Below are positions 12,162-59,008 of a stretch of 64,000 nt of DNA, in pieces. The notes beneath the pieces are model-generated. The model did not search any database. It saw only the letters and a list, made by a program, of their open reading frames with translations, and was not told the origin of the DNA. Position 1 is the first letter of the stretch. Each line of letters starts with the position of its first letter. Source of the DNA: an uncultured SAR86 cluster bacterium (GTDB taxonomy: Bacteria > Pseudomonadota > Gammaproteobacteria > Magnimaribacterales > D2472); the NCBI GenBank assembly GCA_902586925.1, contig CACIJE010000001.1, positions 747,449-811,448 on the forward strand, in the 5' to 3' direction. A program made the translations under genes and the position numbers.

Positions 12162-13343
12162 ATGACAGAAAAAGCATATATTGTAGAGGCGGTTAGAACA
12201 GCAGGCGGTAAAAGAGATGGAAGACTAAGCCTTTGGCATCCAGCTGACTTGGGAGCTAAGGTGCTTGACGAATGTGTTAAAAGATTAGATATTGATCCTT
12301 CAATTGTAGATGATGTAATTTTTGGTTGTGTTGACCAAGTTGGAGCTCAATCAGGTAATGTTGCGAGAAATGCAGTCCTATCATCTTCTTTTCCTGAATC
12401 TGTTCCAGCTACTTCTGTGGATAGACAATGCGGATCATCTCAACAAGCTATTCATTTTGCCATTCAAGCTGTTATGTCTGGCACACAAGATATAGTTATT
12501 GGTGGTGGTGTTGAAGTAATGTCAATGGTACCGATAGGAGCATCTGTAATAGATGGACATAAAGCAGGTCACGGTTTTCCATTTGATTCTGAAGGAATCA
12601 AGAAGCGCTATCCAGGTGTATTTTTCTCTCAATTCACAGGAGCTGAGCTTGTAGCAGATAAATGGAATTTGACTCGAGAAGATTTAGATAAATTTGCACT
12701 GGAAAGCCACCAGAAAGCTGCAAGTGCTACTGAACTAAAATATTTTTATAGAGAGATTCTTCCTGTTGAAGGTAAAAATGCAGAAGGAATAGATGATTTA
12801 GTTCTGTCTGACGAAGGTATAAGATTTGATGCTAGTTTAGATAAACTTTCAGGACTTAAACCTGTCAGTGAAGGTGGAAAAATTACTGCTGGAAATGCAA
12901 GTCAAATTACAGATGGTGCTGCTGCAGTTGTTATATGCAACGAAGTTGGATTAAAAAAAATTCAATCTAATCCTAGAGCAGAGATTGTTTCAATATCTGT
13001 AGTTGGTGATGATCCTGTTTTCATGTTGACTGGACCAATTCCAGCATCTCAAAAAGCTTTAAAAAATGCTCAACTTAGCATTGATGATATTGATATTTAT
13101 GAAGTTAATGAAGCATTTGCGCCTGTTCCACTTGCATGGGCCAAAGAGCTTAAAGCAGATAAGGATAAATTAAATGTTAATGGTGGTGCAATGGCGCTTG
13201 GCCATCCTTTAGGAGCAACAGGTGCAAAACTAATGACAACAATGTTACACGAACTTGAAAGGAGAAAAGCGCGATACGCACTTCAGGCTATTTGTGAGGG
13301 TGGTGGCACTGCAAATGCAACAATCATAAAACGTCTAGATTAA
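12162..13343 (+). CDS. acetyl-CoA C-acetyltransferase (thiolase II family)
   Basis: Active-site Cys in VDRQCGSSQQAI, NGGAMALGHPLGATGA, and C-terminal CEGGGTANA. I chose the ATG at 12162 (MTEKAYIVEAVRTAGGK) over the TTG at 12117. Confidence 0.85.
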   Translation: MTEKAYIVEAVRTAGGKRDGRLSLWHPADLGAKVLDECVKRLDIDPSIVDDVIFGCVDQVGAQSGNVARNAVLSSSFPESVPATSVDRQCGSSQQAIHFAIQAVMSGTQDIVIGGGVEVMSMVPIGASVIDGHKAGHGFPFDSEGIKKRYPGVFFSQFTGAELVADKWNLTREDLDKFALESHQKAASATELKYFYREILPVEGKNAEGIDDLVLSDEGIRFDASLDKLSGLKPVSEGGKITAGNASQITDGAAAVVICNEVGLKKIQSNPRAEIVSISVVGDDPVFMLTGPIPASQKALKNAQLSIDDIDIYEVNEAFAPVPLAWAKELKADKDKLNVNGGAMALGHPLGATGAKLMTTMLHELERRKARYALQAICEGGGTANATIIKRLD

Positions 13344-14305
13344 TCGTATAGTAGGTAATCTAGGATACTTTTGAATCTTTCTCCAAAAAATTTCGGTTCG
13401 TGATCGTGATCTAAATGAACCTCCATTTTAAATTTTACGTAGTTATCATTTAAAATTTTATTAATGTCTTCTTGAGGGTTTTTATAAAGAGAATCTAATC
13501 CAACTGTTCCATGATCAAAATATAATTTATCAAGTAATAACTCACTTATATTATCTTCGACATAGCTCTTGATCGCACCTGTGGTGGCTTCATCTCCATA
13601 AATAAGAGCCTCTGTCGTAGATTGATTACCACTCATATTCATTTTAAAAGGAAGCGTAAGATATTCAGTTATTTTTATACCAACCCAATGAGTTGATAAC
13701 GATCCAACAAATCCAAATGTTTCAGGATTTTCAATTGCAATATTTAATGCTGCCAATCCTCCCATGCTCGCGCCAATAATGCCAAGGTTACTTTTTTTAA
13801 GTTTTAAGTTAAATTTCTTTTCAATGTATGGAATGACTTCTTTGATAATAAAAGACTGATAATCGAATTTCTGTGTGTCTATGAAATTAGAATAAATTGA
13901 TCTTTTAACGTTTTCATTAATGTATTTAATTGATTCTTTTGGAAAATACTCAGCATATCTCCTTGTTTCATCTATTAGATTACCCCGATATCTTTTTGCA
14001 CTGTCTATTGCAATTACTATAACGTTAAGATCCCTTCCTTCTTTTTTGAGGTCTTTGAAGCTATTGTCAATATTCCATGATTGTCCATTCCATGAATCTT
14101 TTTCAAAAAATAATTCTTCACCATCATTCATGATTATGAATTTAGTCTCTGAATTTATATCGGTTTTAACTGGGTAATATATTTGTATTCTTCTTTCGTT
14201 AGAGCCACTTTTTAAATAAGTTTCTTCAATAAAGCCTATTGATAAATCATCGCCATATGAATTAATACTTATAAAAAAAATAATTAAGAAATTTTTAAAT
14301 TTCAT
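13340..14305 (-). CDS. secreted alpha/beta-hydrolase, 'putative esterase' family (esterase D / enterochelin-esterase-like)
   Basis: Nucleophile elbow GASMGG. Sec-type signal MKFKNFLIIFFISINSYG/DD when started at ATG 14305. The track start 14323 is a TTG that would overlap the upstream gene. Confidence 0.7.
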   Translation of the reverse strand: MKFKNFLIIFFISINSYGDDLSIGFIEETYLKSGSNERRIQIYYPVKTDINSETKFIIMNDGEELFFEKDSWNGQSWNIDNSFKDLKKEGRDLNVIVIAIDSAKRYRGNLIDETRRYAEYFPKESIKYINENVKRSIYSNFIDTQKFDYQSFIIKEVIPYIEKKFNLKLKKSNLGIIGASMGGLAALNIAIENPETFGFVGSLSTHWVGIKITEYLTLPFKMNMSGNQSTTEALIYGDEATTGAIKSYVEDNISELLLDKLYFDHGTVGLDSLYKNPQEDINKILNDNYVKFKMEVHLDHDHEPKFFGERFKSILDYLLYD

Positions 14306-14310
14306 TAAGT

Positions 14311-15033
14311 TTATTCTTCCCAATCGAATTTAGGCAATTCTCCAAAAAGATTTCTCAACCCCTCAGACCATTTGCTTGAAAGGTCTGAAAAAAATGGTGT
14401 TTTAAATTGAAGATGTTCTTCTAGTGAGATTTGAATAGAATCTTTTTTGTAAACTACTAAATCAATCGGTGGACCAACTGTAAGATCACTTTTCATAGTT
14501 GAATCAAATGATACAAGGGCACATCTTGCTGCATCCCCCAGAGATGTTTCATTTCTTATAAGTCTGTCAAGGATAGGCTTACCATATTTAGTTTCACCTA
14601 ATTGAAAAAAGGGTTTAATCTCAGATGCTCTTATGTAGTTGCCTACTGGATAAACCATCATAAGGTCCGGTTCTTGACCATCAATTTGGCCACCAATAAT
14701 AAAATTTGAACCTAAATGAGTATTTACAGAAATACCATCTGTTTTTGAGTGATTTAGTGAGATTTTTCCAACATAATCAGCAATCTCGTCAAAATTTTTA
14801 CATAAATTTAAGCTATTAATAGGATTATTAGAATTTAAATCATTCTTTAGTGTTTTAAAAACATGTTGAGATGTAGATAGATTTCCTGAAGTAACAATTA
14901 TGATTGATCTATCACCAACAGAATAAGTAAACATTTTTTTATATGTAGACACATTATCTAAACCTGCATTTGTTCGTGAATCTGATGCCATGACAATGCC
15001 ATCATTCATTTTCATTCCAACACAATATGTCAT
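14311..15033 (-). CDS. Anbu (ancestral beta-subunit), a proteasome-type Ntn-hydrolase (peptidase T1 family)
   Basis: Begins MTYCVGMKMNDGIVMASDSRTNAG, so Thr follows Met directly and Asp falls at mature position 17 with Lys-Lys at 31/32. That is the proteasome beta catalytic spacing. Its neighbours are a CP ATP-grasp and an alpha-E protein, the known Anbu gene neighbourhood. Confidence 0.8.
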   Translation of the reverse strand: MTYCVGMKMNDGIVMASDSRTNAGLDNVSTYKKMFTYSVGDRSIIIVTSGNLSTSQHVFKTLKNDLNSNNPINSLNLCKNFDEIADYVGKISLNHSKTDGISVNTHLGSNFIIGGQIDGQEPDLMMVYPVGNYIRASEIKPFFQLGETKYGKPILDRLIRNETSLGDAARCALVSFDSTMKSDLTVGPPIDLVVYKKDSIQISLEEHLQFKTPFFSDLSSKWSEGLRNLFGELPKFDWEE

Positions 15034-15230
15034 ATTTAATTTATTTATCCAGAAGAACTTATTCTATATTTATATAATAAAAAAATACATAATATCTACT
15101 ATCTTTATACCATCTATTTGTTAAAGTAGATTAAACGTTCATCTTTTAATAAAAGACGGAAGTAGGTTAGAACCGAAGGAACGCATTTCTTTACCCTTTC
15201 TAGTATTTTTATTAATTGAATTTATTAATA

Positions 15231-16664
15231 ATGAAAACTAAAAAATATAATACAGATAAATTTTTTGATGAGTATATAAACAAAAATAACACATCAAGAA
15301 AAAATTTTAAGGATTCATTTAATTTTTTTAAAGCCTTAAGTAATAACAAAAAGAAACTTCTTTCAAATATAAGAGATTCTATTATTAGGTCTATGGGAGT
15401 TACTTTTCGAGTTTATGATAATAATAGATTAATTGACAGAGAGTGGCCATTAGATTTGGTTCCAAGAATAATAATTAAAAAAGAATGGAATGAGGTAAAA
15501 GATGGATTAATACAGAGAATAAAAGCAATTAATTTTTTCATTCATGATGTTTATCATAAACAAGAGTTCTTAAACCAAAATCCTGTTTTAAAATCACTAA
15601 TTTTAGATTCCCCAAATTTTTTAAAAGAATGTAAAGGAGTTGTTCCTAAGAATAAGATTTGGGCAAATATATCTGGCACAGATTTAATAAAAGACCATCG
15701 AGGTAACTTTTATGTGTTAGAAGACAATTTAAGAGTTCCATCTGGAGTAGCTTACATGCTTGAAAATAGAAATGTAATGAAAAAAGTTGTTACTGATTTA
15801 TTTAATAAATATCAGGTTTCGCCTATCGATGATTATACATCTCAATTATATAAATGTTTGTCAGACGCAAGTTACTCAAAAGATAAACTGAAAACTATTG
15901 TCATTTTGAGTCCAGGCATTTTTAATTCTGCTTATTTTGAGCATGCATATTTAGCACAACAGATGGGAATTGATCTTGTAGAGTCTTCAGATTTGATTTT
16001 ATCTAAAGATAATTATGTATATATCAAAACAATTTCTGGTAGAAAAAAAGTAGATGTGATTTATAGAAGGGTAAATGATGATTACCTAGATCCAAATGTA
16101 TGGGTAAAAGATTCAACATTAGGATTGCCCGGAATTATTAATTCTTGGAAAGAAAAAAAAGTTGCGATTGTTAATGCTCCGGGATCAGGAGTTGCTGATG
16201 ACAAAGCTGTGTATGCTTTTGTCCCAAAGATGATAGAGTTTTACTTAAATGAAAAACCAAAACTTAAGCAGGTCAAGACATACCTTTGCGCATTTGAAAA
16301 AGACATGAAATATGTTTTAAGCAACATTAGTAAACTTGTTTTAAAGCCAGTAAATGAATCAGGTGGTTATGGAATTTTAATTGGGCCAAAGGCATCAAAA
16401 AAAGAGTTGGATGAATATAAAGCAAAAATTATTGATAATCCAAGAAATTTTGTAGCACAACCATTAATTAAACTTTCTACAAGTCCTTCTATGATAAATA
16501 CGAGTATAGAACCAAGACATATCGATTTAAGACCATTCATATTGTCCGGTAATAATATTTTTGTAACAAATGGTGGATTGACAAGAGTTGCTCTTACTAA
16601 AGGATCTACTATTGTCAATTCTTCTCAGGGTGGTGGGAGTAAAGATACATGGATAATTCATTAA
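15231..16664 (+). CDS. circularly permuted type-2 ATP-grasp protein (COG2308-like amidoligase)
   Basis: DREWPLDLVPRII, QRIKAINFFIHDVY, GTDLIKDHRGNFYVLEDNLRVPSGVAYMLENR and C-terminal SSQGGGSKDTW match the family signature as I recall it. I chose the ATG at 15231 over the TTG at 15216. Confidence 0.8.
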   Translation: MKTKKYNTDKFFDEYINKNNTSRKNFKDSFNFFKALSNNKKKLLSNIRDSIIRSMGVTFRVYDNNRLIDREWPLDLVPRIIIKKEWNEVKDGLIQRIKAINFFIHDVYHKQEFLNQNPVLKSLILDSPNFLKECKGVVPKNKIWANISGTDLIKDHRGNFYVLEDNLRVPSGVAYMLENRNVMKKVVTDLFNKYQVSPIDDYTSQLYKCLSDASYSKDKLKTIVILSPGIFNSAYFEHAYLAQQMGIDLVESSDLILSKDNYVYIKTISGRKKVDVIYRRVNDDYLDPNVWVKDSTLGLPGIINSWKEKKVAIVNAPGSGVADDKAVYAFVPKMIEFYLNEKPKLKQVKTYLCAFEKDMKYVLSNISKLVLKPVNESGGYGILIGPKASKKELDEYKAKIIDNPRNFVAQPLIKLSTSPSMINTSIEPRHIDLRPFILSGNNIFVTNGGLTRVALTKGSTIVNSSQGGGSKDTWIIH

Positions 16665-17549
16665 ATGTTATCAAGTATTGCTGAAAAAACATATTGGCTC
16701 TCAAGGTATATTGAAAGAATTGAGAATACATCAAGATTGATTAATGTGAATTCAGATTTACTCTTAGACATACCACATGATGAATCAGATGATTTAAAAC
16801 ATCTAATTCAAATAACTGGACACCTAAAAGATTTTAAGAAAAAAAATACTAAAGAAAATGTTTTTTTCTTTTTAATTCAAGACGAAAAAAATCCATCTTC
16901 TATTAAATATTCAATCGAGATGGCAAAGATGAATTCAAGATACCTTTTAACAATGCTTCCAAAGTCAGCATGGGAGCAATTTAATAATTTATATACTGAT
17001 TTTATTAGTAAAAATAAATCATATAATGAAGATCTTTACCAAATAATTAGAAATTCTCAGAGGTTTTTTGCAATTATTTCTGATGGAATGCAAAGAAACG
17101 ATGTTTTTAATTTTATAAAGCTTGGAAGATTTATAGAGAGAGCTGATATGCTTTCAAGAATTATTGAAGATCAGATTTTAAGAAAAGAAAATTTTGTAAA
17201 TAAGTATTATCAAAACTTGCAATGGAGTAGTGTTTTAAAATCTATCAATGGTTTTGAATCATTTAAAACTGAAAATAAAGAGAACTTGAATCAAGAAATT
17301 GTTCTTAAATTTATAGTAATGGAGAAGTTATTTCCAAGATCTTTAAAATACTGTGTTGACAAATTACTAGAAGTGCAAAGATTTTTACCTAAATCTCAGA
17401 AAATAAGAAAATATATGAGTGAGCTTTTAATTGAGTTTTCATATGATGATTTATATAAAAATGATAAAAAAATTTTAAAAGTGCTTGATGATTTTCAGTT
17501 TGGCTTAATAAAATTAGATAAAGAAATTAATGCAAGATTTTTTAATTAA
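16665..17549 (+). CDS. alpha-E domain protein (COG2307-like), partner of the CP ATP-grasp
   Basis: N-terminus MLSSIAEKTYWLSRYIERIENTSRLINV and a second GRFIERADMLSRII repeat are typical of alpha-E. Its start abuts the ATP-grasp stop. Confidence 0.8.
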   Translation: MLSSIAEKTYWLSRYIERIENTSRLINVNSDLLLDIPHDESDDLKHLIQITGHLKDFKKKNTKENVFFFLIQDEKNPSSIKYSIEMAKMNSRYLLTMLPKSAWEQFNNLYTDFISKNKSYNEDLYQIIRNSQRFFAIISDGMQRNDVFNFIKLGRFIERADMLSRIIEDQILRKENFVNKYYQNLQWSSVLKSINGFESFKTENKENLNQEIVLKFIVMEKLFPRSLKYCVDKLLEVQRFLPKSQKIRKYMSELLIEFSYDDLYKNDKKILKVLDDFQFGLIKLDKEINARFFN

Positions 17550-21669: not shown

Positions 21670-22095
21670 TTGTCTATTAACTCAAGAAATAAAGGTGCTG
21701 CATTTGAGAGACAGATTGCAAATGCACTTATAAAAGATCTAAATCTTAAAAATCCAGTCAAAAGAATATTAGAGCAGACCCGTACAAAAGAATTACCTGA
21801 TCTTATGCTAGGAAAATGGTGCATTGAATGTAAAGCTTATGGTGCTGGCGCTGAACCAAGACCAGATTGGTGGGAGCAGGTTCTTGCTTCTGCAAGACAA
21901 GATAACTTCAGACCAGCTTTAGTATATAAATTTAATAATAGACCAATTAAGGTTCGTATATTAGCAAAATCGATTAATAACAAAATAAGCAACAATCTTG
22001 TCACTGTAGATCTTTTATGGCCAGATTTTATTCAAATAATACTTGAATTATTCCAAGAGGATATTGAGTTACATGAACAAAATTATCAAGTGTAG
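21670..22095 (+). CDS. small PD-(D/E)XK-fold nuclease, archaeal Hjc-like candidate Holliday-junction resolvase (hypothetical)
   Basis: 141 codons with a TTG start 3 nt after the yebC stop. RNKGAAFERQIA, then LPDLML and CIECK, give an E...PD...ExK arrangement resembling Hjc (KGxxxER...PD...E-x-K). It occupies the ruvC position. The call rests on motifs only. Confidence 0.5.
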   Translation: MSINSRNKGAAFERQIANALIKDLNLKNPVKRILEQTRTKELPDLMLGKWCIECKAYGAGAEPRPDWWEQVLASARQDNFRPALVYKFNNRPIKVRILAKSINNKISNNLVTVDLLWPDFIQIILELFQEDIELHEQNYQV

Positions 22096-29485: not shown

Positions 29486-30550
29486 ATGATTGAAAATTTA
29501 TCAAATATATTTAAACGCATTTTTAATAATGAAGAGACAATAATATTTTCTATAATTATTATCTTTTCTCTAATAGCATTTAGTTTATTTATTGAGGTTT
29601 TAACTCCATTTATAATAAGTATTATTGTTGCCTATTTACTAGTTGGACTGCAAAAAAATATTGAGACCTATAATATCTCTCAGCCAATATCCACAATTAT
29701 CGCATTTTCAATATTTATTATCGTTGGAGCTGCAATGTTCACATGGTTAATACCTCTTATATACGTTCAACTTCAATCATTTGTTTTAGATATACCGAGA
29801 TTATTCAATGAATTTTTAGGTTTTGTATCTACAATACCTACTGCATTTCCGGAGTTAGTGAATTCAGATCAAATTAGTGTTTTTTTTCAAGCTGTATCAT
29901 CTGAGTTAAGTTCCATAACTCAAAATATAGTTAAATCCTCTATTTCAGGCATACAAAGCACAATTACTGTTCTTCTTTATGTAATTTTATTTCCTATTCT
30001 TGTTTATTTTTTTTTATTTGATAGGAAAAATATTATAGAAGGTTGTCTTAAAATTATTCCTGGTGATAGAGCTATGTTGTCACAGGTATGGTCAGAAATG
30101 GATATTCAATTAAGTAACTATGTTAGAGGAAAAGTTCTTGAAATATTTATTGTTGGAATTGCAGCAGGAATTTTATTTGCTGCATTTGGTTTAAATTATG
30201 GAGCTCTTTTGGCAGTGCTAGTTGGTCTTTCAGTTCTTATACCTTTTGTTGGTGCATTTTCTGTAACTATTCCCATTGTAATTATTGGGTTATTACAATT
30301 TGGTCTAGGAACAGAGTTTTATTTATTAATTGGTTTATACCTTTTACTTCAATTCATCGATGGTAACCTTCTTGTTCCAATAATATTTTCAGAGGCTGTA
30401 AAACTTCACCCAATAGTGATTATTCTTGCTGTATTTATCTTTGGAAGTATATTTGGTTTCTGGGGAGTATTTTTTTCAATACCACTTGCGACATTCATAA
30501 AAGCTGTTTGGAATGCATGGCCAGGAATTTCACCTAAAAATGAAGGGTAA
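29486..30550 (+). CDS. perM: AI-2E family transporter (PerM/YfgO-like, UPF0118)
   Basis: 354 aa polytopic membrane protein with the typical LLQFIDGNLLVPIIFSEAVKLHP motif. Divergent pairing with bepA. Confidence 0.8.
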   Translation: MIENLSNIFKRIFNNEETIIFSIIIIFSLIAFSLFIEVLTPFIISIIVAYLLVGLQKNIETYNISQPISTIIAFSIFIIVGAAMFTWLIPLIYVQLQSFVLDIPRLFNEFLGFVSTIPTAFPELVNSDQISVFFQAVSSELSSITQNIVKSSISGIQSTITVLLYVILFPILVYFFLFDRKNIIEGCLKIIPGDRAMLSQVWSEMDIQLSNYVRGKVLEIFIVGIAAGILFAAFGLNYGALLAVLVGLSVLIPFVGAFSVTIPIVIIGLLQFGLGTEFYLLIGLYLLLQFIDGNLLVPIIFSEAVKLHPIVIILAVFIFGSIFGFWGVFFSIPLATFIKAVWNAWPGISPKNEG

Positions 30551-31496
30551 GCTATTTATATTATTATTTTTTCACTCCCTTATGGTAACTAGCGAAAATT
30601 ATGGAATAGTCGTTCATGGCGGTGCTGGCGTATTGTCGAATCTAACTGAAGCTCAGCAAAAAAATATTGAGCAAAAACTTACAAAAACACTTATTGCTTC
30701 ATATCAAATTTTAGAAAATGGAGGGTCTAGTTTAGATGCAGTTGAGTTTGCTGTGTCAGAATTCGAAGATTCACCATTATTCAATGCTGGAAAAGGTTCT
30801 GTTTATGCTTCAAATGAGACTCAAGAAATGGATGCATCAATCATGTTTGGTAAAAATAGATTAGCTGGGGCAGTGGCATCAGTAAAAGTCATCAAGAATC
30901 CAATTAAACTTGCAAGAGTTGTAGCTGAAGAAACATCTCATATATTACTAGTAGGTGATGGAGCAGAATCATTTGCAAAAAAAAATGGATTAGATATTGT
31001 TGATCCAAATTATTTTTACTCTGAAAAAAATTTAAAAAGATTAAAAATGTTAAAAAATAAAGTTGCAAAAAATTCAACAGTTCAAGATAAAATAGGAACA
31101 GTAGGTGCAGTTGCGATTGATAAAGATGGTAATATCTCAGCAGCAACATCAACAGGAGGAATGACCAATAAGATGCCTGGGAGAGTTGGCGACTCTCCAA
31201 TTATAGGATCGGGTACCTGGGCTCAGAATGGGGTTTGTGGAGTATCATCAACTGGTCACGGAGAGTTTTTCATAAAATATCAAGTTGCACGTGAAGTTTG
31301 TACAAGAATGGAGTATTTAAATCAATCTTTAAAAGAATCGTCTTCAAATATAATCAATGAGTTAGAGGAAATTGGTGCATCAGGAGGTTTAATCGCGATC
31401 GATAAAGAAGCAAATATATCAACACCATTTAATACAGACGGCATGATAAGAGGAAGTATTACTAACAAGAAAGCTTTGAGTGTCGGAGTATATTAA
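30540..31496 (+). CDS. iaaA: isoaspartyl peptidase / L-asparaginase (plant-type Ntn hydrolase, IaaA-like), apparently secreted
   Basis: HGGAG, autoprocessing site GTVGAV and STGGMTNKMPGRVGDSPIIG. I chose the ATG at 30540 (MKGKLFILLFF..., signal-like) over 30513. Confidence 0.85.
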   Translation: MKGKLFILLFFHSLMVTSENYGIVVHGGAGVLSNLTEAQQKNIEQKLTKTLIASYQILENGGSSLDAVEFAVSEFEDSPLFNAGKGSVYASNETQEMDASIMFGKNRLAGAVASVKVIKNPIKLARVVAEETSHILLVGDGAESFAKKNGLDIVDPNYFYSEKNLKRLKMLKNKVAKNSTVQDKIGTVGAVAIDKDGNISAATSTGGMTNKMPGRVGDSPIIGSGTWAQNGVCGVSSTGHGEFFIKYQVAREVCTRMEYLNQSLKESSSNIINELEEIGASGGLIAIDKEANISTPFNTDGMIRGSITNKKALSVGVY

Positions 31497-37061: not shown

Positions 37062-37403
37062 ATGGCAAAAATTAAAATATGGCCTCATGAGGAAATTTGT
37101 CCTAATGGTGCAGAAATAGAATCTCTTCCAGATGAGACTATATGTGAGGCAGCTCTTAGAAATCATATAAAGATTGAACATGCTTGCGAGATGTCAGCAG
37201 CATGTACTACTTGTCACTGTATAGTTAGAAAAGGTTTTGAAAGCCTTGAATCTGCAAGTGATATTGAGGAAGATTTGCTCGATAAAGCCTGGGGTCTTGA
37301 GCAGACATCTAGACTAAGCTGCCAGGCAGTTCCGCCCTTAAATGAAGAGATAGAGATAGAACTACCAAAATATAATATCAACATGGTTTCAGAAGATCAC
37401 TAA
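37062..37403 (+). CDS. fdx: [2Fe-2S] ferredoxin of the ISC system (adrenodoxin-type Fdx)
   Basis: Near-colinear with E. coli Fdx: AALRN.I.IEHACE.S.ACTTCHCIVR.GF...LDKAWGLE..SRLSCQA. Confidence 0.92.
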   Translation: MAKIKIWPHEEICPNGAEIESLPDETICEAALRNHIKIEHACEMSAACTTCHCIVRKGFESLESASDIEEDLLDKAWGLEQTSRLSCQAVPPLNEEIEIELPKYNINMVSEDH

Positions 37404-37606
37404 TGGAAAAAATTGATTGGCTCGATGTTTTAGAAATTGCAATACAACTGAATGAAAAATTTCCAGAACTTGATCCTCAATGGATAAGCTTTCCTGATCT
37501 ACACCAAAAAATCTGTGAACTGGATAATTTTGAAGGCGATAAAGATAAGTCTAATGAAAAGATATTAGAAGCTATTCAGATGCATTGGATAGAAGAATAT
37601 CAATAA
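37403..37606 (+). CDS. iscX: Fe-S assembly protein IscX (YfhJ)
   Basis: 67 aa acidic protein with W at position 6 and the ...ILEAIQMHWIEEY tail typical of IscX. It is the last gene of the isc cluster. Confidence 0.8.
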   Translation: MEKIDWLDVLEIAIQLNEKFPELDPQWISFPDLHQKICELDNFEGDKDKSNEKILEAIQMHWIEEYQ

Positions 37607-58544: not shown

Positions 58545-58560
58545 TGGCATATTAATTGCA
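58545..58560 (+). promoter_or_regulatory. candidate sigma-54 (-24/-12) promoter element
   Basis: TGGCATATTAATTGCA has GG and GC separated by exactly 10 nt, as in the consensus TGGCACG-N4-TTGCW. It lies 56 nt upstream of the TTG of the 130-aa ORF. It is a single occurrence in an AT-rich spacer, so chance cannot be excluded. Confidence 0.3.
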
Positions 58561-58615: not shown

Positions 58616-59008
58616 TTGAGTTTATTAAAAAAAGATAGTCACATTTCGAAAGCAAAGATTCTGATCAATACCATTTTAAAAAATATGGATAATCCTATGA
58701 AACCTGAATCACTTAATTTTTTTCAAGCAGATGCATACAGATTTTATTTTCTTATGAGTTTTATGAACGAACACATTGAAGAAAATGAGATGTCGCAAGA
58801 GTACGCTATTTCACTGGTACCAAAAAAATATGCATCAAGGATTAAACGTCTCCAGGTATTAAAACAAGCGGTAACTCTGGGTTACATAAGTGAAAAGTCA
58901 TCTTCAATTGACAAAAGGAGAAGAATTTATGAACCCACAGAAATCTTAATTAAAGATTTTTTAGAATACTCAGAATCTATACTCCGCGATAATAGTTCTT
59001 CCGCATAA
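58616..59008 (+). CDS. hypothetical protein, possible winged-helix (MarR-like) DNA-binding protein
   Basis: TTG start preceded by a strong SD (GGAGG at 58606-58610). The C-terminal half (ASRIKRLQVLKQAVTLGYISEKSSSIDKRRRIYEPTE) resembles the MarR recognition helix plus D-x-R wing pattern. I recognise no family. Confidence 0.45.
   Translation: MSLLKKDSHISKAKILINTILKNMDNPMKPESLNFFQADAYRFYFLMSFMNEHIEENEMSQEYAISLVPKKYASRIKRLQVLKQAVTLGYISEKSSSIDKRRRIYEPTEILIKDFLEYSESILRDNSSSA

What the first reader, a model, noticed from the sequence alone, without database searches (positions are those of the whole stretch)
13340..17549. Reduced, split Anbu / circularly permuted ATP-grasp / alpha-E cluster without the transglutaminase gene
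Three genes of the poorly understood Anbu neighbourhood are present. Comparative genomics has predicted this neighbourhood to be a peptide-tagging and degradation system, and Anbu structures exist, but no physiological substrate is known. The genes are Anbu (14311-15033, minus strand), a CP type-2 ATP-grasp (15231-16664) and an alpha-E protein (16665-17549). Anbu begins MT-YCVG, giving mature Thr1 and Asp17 with Lys31/32. As I recall it, the usual arrangement is a co-directional operon of ATP-grasp, alpha-E, transglutaminase-like protease and Anbu. Here the transglutaminase-like gene is absent. Anbu is transcribed divergently from a shared spacer of about 200 nt, the longest non-coding stretch in the window. 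Anbu is followed after 5 nt by a signal-peptide-bearing alpha/beta-hydrolase (13340-14305). Retention of this cluster in a genome that has shed ruvCAB, hscBA, rpoS and other genes from the loci in this window suggests real selective value. The two-plus-one architecture could help define the minimal functional core.
Basis: partly seen in the sequence, partly recalled or inferred. Interest (0 to 1): 0.65.

Follow-up and report, generated by a model that had tools for sequence, protein, structure and literature searches.

The report
Glutamine-riboswitch-controlled minimal Anbu gene module

Summary
Anbu (14311-15033, -), a circularly permuted ATP-grasp (15231-16664, +) and Alpha-E (16665-17549, +) are real, and no transglutaminase (TGase) lies in the 64-kb window. 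The window is from SAR86.

- **Conservation:** the divergent, TGase-less layout is present in all of about 25 SAR86 genomes examined, in at least 5 flanking contexts. All three genes are under purifying selection as strong as the neighbouring tRNA synthetases.
- **Esterase:** it occurs only in one subclade and is a bystander.
- **Main new result:** the 197-nt spacer holds a full-length type-1 glutamine riboswitch (RF01739; 15134-15187, +; 66 bits against a gathering score of 35), 43 nt upstream of the ATP-grasp start codon. A conserved alternative helix, with one compensatory change, suggests a translational ON switch.
- **Other clades:** a sister SAR86 clade has a sigma-54-type promoter element at the same place. 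A second low-GC marine lineage keeps only ATP-grasp | Anbu, without Alpha-E.
- **Limits:** one SAR86 genome has deleted the module. Absence of TGase from the whole genome could not be tested.

Verdict: a new variant of a known system, with a useful new handle (glutamine) on Anbu function.

The parts
14311..15033 (-). Anbu (Anbu-1 subtype), an Ntn-hydrolase homolog of the proteasome beta subunit, with its own divergent promoter
   Evidence: Matches PDB Anbu structures at E=2.9e-68 and 3e-58. Thr1, Asp17, Lys32 and the Anbu-1 S1-pocket residues are conserved (compared with PMC5666114). dN/dS is 0.03-0.05.
15034..15230 (.). Divergent 197-nt spacer, the longest non-coding stretch in the window
   Evidence: Deeper SAR86 clades have only 67-101 nt here.
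15061..15094 (.). Block A, a 34-nt AT-rich block that is 96% conserved; probably back-to-back promoters (TATAAT/CATAAT-like boxes). This role is inferred.
   Evidence: Spacer alignment. Pairwise identity is 0.96 against 0.56-0.68 for the flanking spacer. The function is inferred only.
15134..15187 (+). Type-1 glutamine riboswitch aptamer (glnA RNA, RF01739) in the 5' leader of the ATP-grasp gene
   Evidence: Rfam score 66 bits against a gathering score of 35, E=1.7e-14, full model 1-53. Orthologs score 61-67 bits in L008, L012, L014, L015, L017 and L020. Identity is 93%, and substitutions fall only in loops or preserve pairing through wobble.
15207..15219 (+). Downstream box that can pair with aptamer stem P1a (15146-15154). 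This putative anti-aptamer/sequestering helix ends 11 nt before the AUG.
   Evidence: A 9-12 bp duplex is present in all 9 orthologs. There is one A-U to G-C compensatory change (L017/L018) and three wobble changes. Energies beat shuffled flanks (p<=0.024 each).
15231..16664 (+). Circularly permuted ATP-grasp type 2 (predicted amidoligase). The conserved start is the ATG at 15231, not the TTG at 15216.
   Evidence: PF14403 E=1.4e-147. dN/dS is 0.06-0.08. The start codon is conserved in orthologs.
16665..17549 (+). Alpha-E protein, whose start abuts the ATP-grasp stop (co-translated pair)
   Evidence: PF04168 E=3.3e-63 over profile positions 1-294/294. dN/dS is 0.04-0.10.
13340..14305 (-). Secreted esterase-D-type alpha/beta hydrolase downstream of Anbu; a subclade-specific passenger, not part of the module
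   Evidence: PF00756 E=3.8e-16. It is absent in L012, L014-L020 and L025. dN/dS is more relaxed at 0.08-0.15.

Best explanation
This is a functional, reduced Anbu module of SAR86. It pairs an ATP-dependent amide ligase (CP ATP-grasp plus Alpha-E, one transcript) with a Thr1 Ntn amidohydrolase (Anbu, divergent transcript). It works without an adjacent transglutaminase and is wired to nitrogen status.

In the window's clade, the ligase mRNA carries a type-1 glutamine riboswitch. When glutamine is low, the aptamer's P1a segment pairs with a box just upstream of the AUG and damps translation. When glutamine binds, the aptamer folds, the box is released, and ATP-grasp/Alpha-E are made (an ON switch, as proposed for cyanobacterial gifB). 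Anbu is expressed from its own promoter. Glutamine therefore sets the ligase-to-hydrolase ratio on a shared amide-linked substrate, either a peptide tag or a small peptide.

Shown: the gene identities, conservation, purifying selection, local absence of TGase, the riboswitch, and the alternative helix.
Inferred: ligand response, the sign of the switch, promoter positions, and the shared substrate.
For: - Gene families.
- The unit is conserved in all SAR86 loci down to 57% Anbu identity and sits in at least 5 different flanking contexts.
- dN/dS is 0.03-0.10, equal to or lower than proS and aspS.
- No TGase, DUF2126 or Peptidase_Mx in the window or within +/-10 kb in any SAR86 locus.
- Riboswitch at 66 bits, the only cis-regulatory RNA in 64 kb, on the same strand, 43 nt from the AUG, with no terminator between. 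It is conserved at 61-67 bits in six other species-level genomes although dS exceeds 1 in flanking genes.
- Alternative helix with a compensatory change. The mechanistic precedent is PMC6212724.
- Independent nitrogen link: a sigma-54 -24/-12 consensus (TGGCATAATTATTGCA) lies at the same position in clade L022-L024, and the motif is rare, with 9 hits per 1.05 Mb.
- The homologous cluster is NtrC/sigma-54-dependent in B. cenocepacia (PMC5491218) and most induced under N limitation in P. putida (note in PMC3235984).
- ATP-grasp | Anbu persist together without Alpha-E in a second lineage, and all three genes were lost together in L037. Both points argue for a functional link.
Against: - No biochemical activity is known for any Anbu, and no interaction with its operon partners was detected in Y. 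bercovieri (PMC6376114).
- The ON direction conflicts with induction under N limitation in Pseudomonas and Burkholderia.
- The alternative helix is AU-rich and short, and the orthologs are closely related, so covariation rests on one compensatory event.
- No SD sequence is visible, so what exactly is sequestered is unclear.
- The riboswitch has decayed in one sub-lineage (L009 37 bits, L010 26 bits, L013 below threshold) and is absent from the deeper clades. It is therefore not essential to the module.
- A TGase could be encoded elsewhere in the genome.
Confidence: 0.55

Rival explanations
1. The system is canonical but dispersed. A transglutaminase-like partner is encoded elsewhere in the SAR86 genome, and the four proteins still work together as one regulon.
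For: Valas & Bourne found no Anbu genome without a transglutaminase, and found split operons in the same regulon (PMC3235984). I could inspect only 64 kb plus +/-10 kb around the locus in relatives.
Against: No TGase in the window or in any of about 25 SAR86 loci across 5 contexts. The genomes are small at about 1.3 Mb (L021 record). An independent loss of TGase is visibly in progress in L034, where remnants remain. A second lineage has shrunk even further.
Confidence: 0.2
2. Same module, but the riboswitch is an OFF switch. Glutamine represses the ligase, so it is made under nitrogen limitation, matching NtrC/sigma-54 control in other proteobacteria. The module then scavenges nitrogen by protein or peptide turnover.
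For: Induction under N limitation elsewhere (PMC5491218; PMC3235984 note). A sigma-54 element in the sister clade. The same riboswitch class precedes amt, gltB and glnA in low-GC marine contigs, where negative control is considered reasonable (PMC6212724).
Against: The only conserved alternative pairing competes with the aptamer and occupies the region just upstream of the AUG, which is the geometry of an ON switch. No terminator or ligand-state-dependent RBS-sequestering helix was found.
Confidence: 0.25
3. Anbu and ATP-grasp/Alpha-E are functionally unrelated neighbours. Anbu is a stand-alone protease and the adjacency is historical.
For: No stable complex and no mutual stimulation in vitro (PMC6376114). 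Anbu stands alone in Hydrocarboniphaga, with no ATP-grasp or Alpha-E within 10 kb (L032). The genes are in separate transcription units here.
Against: The pair stays adjacent through at least 6 different genomic contexts and about 40-50% sequence divergence, including the two-gene lineage. All three genes were deleted together in L037.
Confidence: 0.1
4. The cluster is a decaying remnant of the four-gene operon with no current function.
For: Loss of TGase. Deletion in L037. Riboswitch decay in L009, L010 and L013.
Against: Intact ORFs in about 25 genomes. dN/dS is 0.03-0.10. Catalytic residues are invariant. Anbu is as conserved as RecA-class proteins, at 90-93% identity where the aaRS genes are at 82-86%.
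Confidence: 0.03

Closest known systems
Canonical Anbu operon (P. aeruginosa Anbu PA1733; Y. bercovieri): ATP-grasp - Alpha-E - transglutaminase-like - Anbu
   Same: The same three protein families. Anbu is of the Anbu-1 type with the same catalytic and S1-pocket residues. ATP-grasp and Alpha-E are adjacent and in the same order. Both are linked to nitrogen status.
   Different: No transglutaminase gene. Anbu is inverted and divergently transcribed. Regulation is by a glutamine riboswitch instead of NtrC/sigma-54. The host genome is streamlined, at about 31% GC and about 1.3 Mb.
Extended gammaproteobacterial system (Oleiphilaceae L035): Anbu -> TGase-DUF2126 fusion, converging with ATP-grasp -> Alpha-E -> Peptidase_Mx
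   Same: Among the closest non-marine Anbu relatives found (41-50% identity). Anbu is on the opposite strand from the ligase genes.
   Different: SAR86 lacks TGase, the DUF2126 amidoligase-like domain and the Zn-peptidase. The orientation is divergent, not convergent.
NtrC/sigma-54-dependent DUF404/407-DUF403-transglutaminase cluster of Burkholderia cenocepacia (I35_5080-5083)
   Same: An ATP-grasp + Alpha-E pair under nitrogen control.
   Different: It contains two transglutaminase-domain proteins. No Anbu is listed in that cluster. It uses a protein-based activator rather than an RNA sensor (PMC5491218).
Type-1 glutamine riboswitch of Synechocystis gifB (IF17)
   Same: The same aptamer class (RF01739). 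The proposed mechanism is the same: ligand binding melts a helix that blocks translation initiation.
   Different: The downstream gene is an ATP-grasp ligase rather than a glutamine-synthetase inactivating factor, amt, gltB or glnA. The host is a gammaproteobacterium. 0 of 120 sampled riboswitch loci carry these genes.

Membership tests
Anbu (Anbu-1 subtype) | Sequence much closer to solved Anbu proteins than to proteasome beta or HslV | tested here: met
   E=2.9e-68 (5LOY, Anbu-1 consensus) and 3e-58 (5NYJ), against 1e-6 for archaeal proteasome beta.
Anbu (Anbu-1 subtype) | No propeptide; Thr directly after the initiator Met; Asp17 and Lys32(33) present | tested here: met
   MTYCVG...; T2, D18 and K33 (precursor numbering) are invariant in 15 aligned sequences.
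Anbu (Anbu-1 subtype) | Anbu-1 S1 pocket T20/F30/T48/L52/S55, as opposed to the basic Anbu-2 pocket | tested here: met
   The SAR86 protein has T20, Y30, T47, L51 and S54 (a one-residue deletion shifts the numbering). Alignment was compared with PMC5666114.
Anbu (Anbu-1 subtype) | Open split-ring or helical dodecamer with a C-terminal H5 helix | not testable with these tools
   The C-terminal region aligns end to end with 5LOY. The oligomeric state needs experiment.
Circularly permuted ATP-grasp type 2 | Pfam PF14403 / PF04174 above the gathering score over the full domain | tested here: met
   492 bits (cut-off 32), profile positions 1-374/374.
Circularly permuted ATP-grasp type 2 | ATP-dependent carboxylate-amine ligase activity | not testable with these tools
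   Only ATP hydrolysis has been shown, for the Y. bercovieri homolog (PMC6376114).
Alpha-E | Pfam PF04168 full-length match | tested here: met
   214.6 bits, profile positions 1-294/294.
Canonical four-gene Anbu operon | Co-directional order ATP-grasp, Alpha-E, transglutaminase-like, Anbu | tested here: not met
   Anbu is divergent from ATP-grasp->Alpha-E in the window and in all SAR86 loci.
Canonical four-gene Anbu operon | Transglutaminase-like gene adjacent to the cluster | tested here: not met
   No hit at E<=10 in six-frame searches of the window and the SAR86 loci. Positive controls L035 and L034 were detected. Pfam on flanking and unassigned ORFs found none.
Canonical four-gene Anbu operon | Transglutaminase present somewhere in the genome (Valas & Bourne rule) | not testable with these tools
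   Only 64 kb plus 20-kb loci were accessible. The complete genome CP097973.1 could not be read in full.
Glutamine riboswitch type 1 (glnA RNA, RF01739) | Covariance-model score above Rfam's gathering score, over the full-length model | tested here: met
   66 bits against 35, model positions 1-53/53. Orthologs score 61-67 bits.
Glutamine riboswitch type 1 (glnA RNA, RF01739) | Conserved core (CGUUCA ... ACGGAAGUAGG ... CGAAGGAACGC) with P1, P1a and P3 pairing maintained | tested here: met
   All consensus upper-case positions match. Substitutions among orthologs fall only in loops or give G-U pairs.
Glutamine riboswitch type 1 (glnA RNA, RF01739) | Cis position in the 5' leader of the regulated gene, with an expression platform | tested here: met
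   Same strand, 43 nt upstream of the ATP-grasp AUG. A conserved alternative helix is present.
Glutamine riboswitch type 1 (glnA RNA, RF01739) | Selective binding of L-glutamine and ligand-dependent gene control | not testable with these tools
   Needs in-line probing or ITC, and reporter assays.
   The esterase is absent in L012, L014-L020 and L025 and in all deeper clades.

The most novel reading that the evidence does not exclude
Glutamine is the physiological signal for the Anbu system, and possibly also a substrate or product. In this reading the ATP-grasp | Anbu pair is a self-sufficient minimal ligase/amidohydrolase cycle. It is switched on when glutamine is plentiful and acts as a nitrogen-buffering or protein-tagging device, functionally analogous to glutamine-riboswitch control of GS-inactivating factors in cyanobacteria. 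Transglutaminase and Alpha-E would then be accessories rather than core parts.
Probability: 0.2. Interest if true: 0.85.

Novelty: new variant of a known kind. Interest (0 to 1): 0.62.

Why it matters
Anbu was defined in 2008 and has solved structures, but it still has no known substrate, activator or physiological role. This locus offers three practical handles.

1. **A defined small-molecule input.** A glutamine riboswitch sits directly on the partner ligase genes, and it can be tested in vitro within days.
2. **Natural minimal versions.** The three-gene form here, and a two-gene ATP-grasp | Anbu form in a second marine lineage, show which parts stay together when the transglutaminase is gone. 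That simplifies reconstitution.
3. **Regulatory convergence.** A riboswitch in one SAR86 clade, a sigma-54-type element in another and NtrC control in Pseudomonas/Burkholderia all point to nitrogen status.

It also adds a new, non-canonical target gene class to the glutamine riboswitch, in one of the most abundant heterotrophs of the surface ocean.

Tried and rejected
- **Sigma-54 site in the window's own spacer:** none within 2 mismatches. The nearest hit is inside the Anbu coding sequence.
- **Sigma-70 and terminator consensus scans:** fewer promoter-like hits than in shuffles, and no terminator in the leader, so these were uninformative.
- **MFE folding of the leader:** z-score 0.51, not informative by itself. 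It was useful only as a pointer to the alternative helix.
- **Esterase as a partner:** rejected because the linkage is not conserved.
- **Riboswitch control of ATP-grasp as a common pairing:** 0 of 120 sampled riboswitch loci carry these genes.
- **Riboswitches in other clades:** none in the deeper SAR86 clades, the two-gene lineage or the outgroups.
- **Literature:** no paper in the library mentions a glutamine riboswitch together with ATP-grasp or Anbu. DUF403/404/407 and COG2307/2308 do not appear in the first 200 held supplementary files of Weinberg 2010. Ames & Breaker 2011 and Iyer 2009 are not held, so their gene lists could not be checked.
- **Taxon of the two-gene lineage:** cluster look-up gave no organism names.
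- **Sigma-54 or NtrC in SAR86:** nothing found in the literature.
- **L001's odd ATP-grasp/Alpha-E identities:** explained as a probable assembly chimera that breaks at window position 15967.
Full report
**1.

ORFs are present exactly as described.
- Pfam places 15231-16664 in CP_ATPgrasp_2 (E=1.4e-147), 16665-17549 in Alpha-E (E=3.3e-63, full profile) and 13340-14305 in the esterase-D family PF00756.
- Pfam has no Anbu model. A search of PDB sequences settles the point: the 240-aa protein matches Anbu structures at E=2.9e-68 (the Anbu-1 consensus design 5LOY) and 3e-58 (5NYJ), against about 1e-6 for proteasome beta.
- It begins MTYCVG. In an alignment with 12 relatives and two solved Anbu proteins, Thr1, Asp17, Lys32, the GGQ motif and the GExKYGKPILDR motif are invariant. 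The Anbu-1 S1-pocket residues described by Fuchs et al. (T20, F30, T48, L52, S55) are retained as T20, Y30, T47, L51, S54.
- The conserved start of the ATP-grasp is the ATG at 15231.
- The spacer is 197 nt and is the longest non-coding stretch. The two longer apparent gaps contain iscX (37403-37606; TIGR03412, E=4e-26) and rpsR.

**2. No transglutaminase is present locally, and this is not an assembly artefact**

- The window is from SAR86, with a 100% tblastn match to MAG MED709 contig NZFS01000006.1.
- The identical arrangement is found in at least 6 independent metagenome assemblies.
- The outgroup locus L035 (Oleiphilaceae) served as a positive control. There Anbu is followed by a 1093-aa Bact_transglu_N + Transglut_core + DUF2126 protein, and the ligase genes by a Peptidase_Mx.
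- phmmer with these queries against all six frames of the window and all SAR86 loci found nothing at E<=10. The same search did pick up degraded remnants in L034.
- Every window ORF that I could not assign by eye to a housekeeping family was scanned with Pfam, and none is transglutaminase-like.
- The literature confirms that the canonical order is ATP-grasp, Alpha-E, transglutaminase-like, Anbu (PMC6376114). Valas & Bourne saw no Anbu genome without a transglutaminase (PMC3235984).
- I could not test the whole genome.

**3. Comparative anatomy**

In 31 genome loci, annotated offline:
- The divergent Anbu | ATP-grasp -> Alpha-E unit without TGase is present in every SAR86 genome that has Anbu, from 100% down to 57% Anbu identity.
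- It sits between different neighbours in at least five contexts: proS/thiolase in the window's clade, and other flanks in L021, L023, L026/L028 and L031. The three genes therefore travel as a block.
- The esterase is present only in the window's closest relatives (window, L001, L006-L011, L013). It is absent in L012, L014-L020 and L025, where Anbu abuts the thiolase. It is a passenger.
- Pairwise dN/dS against five relatives is 0.03-0.05 for Anbu, 0.06-0.08 for ATP-grasp and 0.04-0.10 for Alpha-E. The comparable values are 0.05-0.075 for proS/aspS and 0.08-0.15 for the esterase. dS is saturated in most pairs, so these are rough values.
- The module is not indispensable. In L037, proS is followed directly by only the last ~95 codons of Anbu. 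A deletion has removed Alpha-E, ATP-grasp, the spacer and the catalytic N-terminus of Anbu.

**4. A still smaller version exists**

- A database search with Anbu returned many ~58%-identical proteins.
- Their contigs (SAGs GCA_902616625.1 and GCA_902546795.1, plus JGI/Tara contigs; GC about 30%) show ATP-grasp | Anbu divergent across about 106 nt. There is no Alpha-E and no TGase within +/-8 kb.
- In some of these genomes the ATP-grasp gene is followed by glucosyl-3-phosphoglycerate synthase-like and phosphatase genes.
- The low-GC marine Anbu clades are 50-61% identical to each other and 41-50% identical to the other gammaproteobacterial outgroups. This is consistent with one lineage of reduced modules.
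- The organism of the two-gene lineage was not determined.

**5. The spacer holds a glutamine riboswitch**

- Aligning the spacer across the window's clade showed two strongly conserved blocks in an otherwise variable AT-rich spacer.
- Rfam identifies the second block as a full-length type-1 glutamine riboswitch aptamer (RF01739) at 15134-15187 on the + strand: 66 bits against a gathering score of 35, E=1.7e-14.
- Apart from one tRNA, it is the only Rfam match in the 64-kb window.
- Orthologous aptamers score 61-67 bits in L008, L012, L014, L015, L017 and L020. The score is 37 bits in L009 (P1 damaged) and 26 bits in L010 (core substitutions), and L013 falls below threshold. The element has therefore decayed in one sub-lineage.
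- It is absent from the deeper SAR86 clades (spacers of 67-101 nt), the two-gene lineage and the outgroups.
- Among intact copies the aptamer is 93% identical, against 56-68% for the neighbouring spacer segments. Every substitution is in a loop or preserves pairing through G-U.
- Block A (15061-15094, 96% identical) probably carries the two back-to-back promoters. This is an inference.

**6. Expression platform**

- There is no terminator in the leader and no visible SD.
- In all nine distinct orthologs, aptamer stem P1a (positions 6-14, UUAAUAAAA, 15146-15154) can pair with a box that ends 11-16 nt before the AUG (15207-15219 in the window).
- The duplex energies beat shuffled flanks in every case (p<=0.024).
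- There is one A-U to G-C compensatory change (L017/L018), three wobble-compatible changes and no disruptive ones.
- This helix excludes P1a, so ligand-stabilised folding of the aptamer should release the region upstream of the start codon. That is the logic proposed for the cyanobacterial gifB ON switch (PMC6212724).
- I therefore favour an ON switch (about 55-60%), but the evidence is thin.

**7. Nitrogen context**

- The homologous cluster is NtrC/sigma-54-dependent in B. cenocepacia (PMC5491218) and was the most induced under nitrogen limitation in P. putida (note in PMC3235984).
- DUF403/404/407 and Bact_transglu_N co-vary with urea genes in marine metagenomes (PMC3597751).
- In SAR86 clade L022-L024, the 67-nt spacer carries TGGCATAATTATTGCA facing the ATP-grasp gene. 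This strict sigma-54 motif occurs only 9 times in 1.05 Mb of SAR86 sequence, and three of those hits are this one site. Whether SAR86 has rpoN was not established.
- Two different nitrogen-type control devices at the same position in sister clades are good independent evidence that the ligase genes belong to nitrogen physiology.
- The likely ON sign in the window's clade is opposite to induction under N limitation, and this remains unresolved.

**8. Is the riboswitch-ligase pairing known or common?**

- Published target lists are GS, GOGAT, PII, Amt, PMT1479 and IF17-like peptides (PMC2864571, PMC6212724).
- A 2025 study notes RF01739 inside deletions in SAR86 populations but names no target (PMC12379486).
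- A metagenome scan with the aptamer core returned 120 loci before truncation. The downstream genes are small peptides, amt (with tandem aptamers), gltB, glnA and a TonB receptor. None of the 120 loci contains ATP-grasp, Alpha-E or Anbu.
- No paper in the searchable library combines the two topics.
- Ames & Breaker 2011 and Iyer 2009 could not be read.

**9. Verdict**

- The finding is real, and the family assignments are right.
- The "minimal core" idea is sharpened: ATP-grasp + Anbu is the part that persists.
- The important feature of the spacer, a glutamine riboswitch on the ligase genes, was missed.
- This is a new variant of a known system, not a new kind.
- It matters because it gives the orphan Anbu system a defined metabolite input and natural minimal forms to test.

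Noticed in passing
window 21670-22095 (+): The slot after yebC, where gammaproteobacteria normally have ruvCAB, holds a 141-aa phage-type PDDEXK_15 nuclease (E=2.4e-11), followed directly by ybgC-tolQRAB. It may be a non-orthologous replacement of the Holliday-junction resolvase in a genome lacking ruvCAB at this locus.
   Followed up: partly
window 58545-58560 (+), upstream of ORF 58616-59008: A near-consensus sigma-54 -24/-12 element (TGGCATATTAATTGCA) lies in an intergenic gap 56 nt upstream of a 130-aa ORF with no Pfam or NCBIfam match. This suggests that SAR86 uses sigma-54 promoters.
   Followed up: partly
L037 10136-10423 (SAR86 MAG SP266, PBKO01000007.1): proS is followed directly by only the C-terminal ~95 codons of Anbu. 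A deletion has removed Alpha-E, ATP-grasp, the spacer and the Anbu N-terminus, so the module is dispensable in this lineage.
   Followed up: yes
L034 2001-2797 (Chromatiaceae MAG): Fragments of the TGase N-terminus and of Peptidase_Mx lie between Anbu and Alpha-E. This looks like an independent, ongoing loss of the transglutaminase and peptidase genes outside SAR86.
   Followed up: partly
L158-L164 (SAGs GCA_902616625.1 and GCA_902546795.1; JGI/Tara contigs): A second low-GC marine lineage has a two-gene ATP-grasp | Anbu pair without Alpha-E. In L158-L160 the ATP-grasp gene is followed by glucosyl-3-phosphoglycerate synthase-like and MPGP-family phosphatase genes. From my own knowledge, glucosylglycerate is an osmolyte associated with nitrogen limitation. 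The taxon was not determined.
   Followed up: partly
L009, L010, L013 spacers (e.g. L010 9849-9901): The glutamine riboswitch is decaying in one sub-lineage of the window's clade (37, 26 and below 35 bits), with substitutions at core positions, while the ATP-grasp, Alpha-E and Anbu genes stay intact.
   Followed up: yes
L001 (ERZ505268 NODE_384), breakpoint at window position 15967: The contig is 98% identical to the window up to the middle of the ATP-grasp gene, then switches to unrelated, higher-GC ATP-grasp/Alpha-E sequence. It is probably a metagenome assembly chimera joined inside the conserved gene.
   Followed up: yes
L087, L120, L126, L132, L150 (metagenome contigs, GC 0.28-0.34): Ammonium-transporter genes in low-GC marine contigs are preceded by tandem glutamine aptamers. 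gltB leaders (L046, L104, L157) share a conserved pair of alternative hairpins after the aptamer.
   Followed up: no
window 30513-31496 (+): A second Ntn-hydrolase in the window: an Asparaginase_2 family protein (isoaspartyl peptidase/L-asparaginase, E=4.6e-101) with an N-terminal hydrophobic signal-like segment.
   Followed up: no
L036 (labelled Rhodospirillaceae SP147) and L031 (labelled SAR202 AG-893-A15): Both contigs carry SAR86-type loci. L036 is 92% identical in Anbu and has the same proS/aspS synteny. The organism labels probably reflect mis-binning or contamination.
   Followed up: no
iscX is retained.
   Followed up: partly
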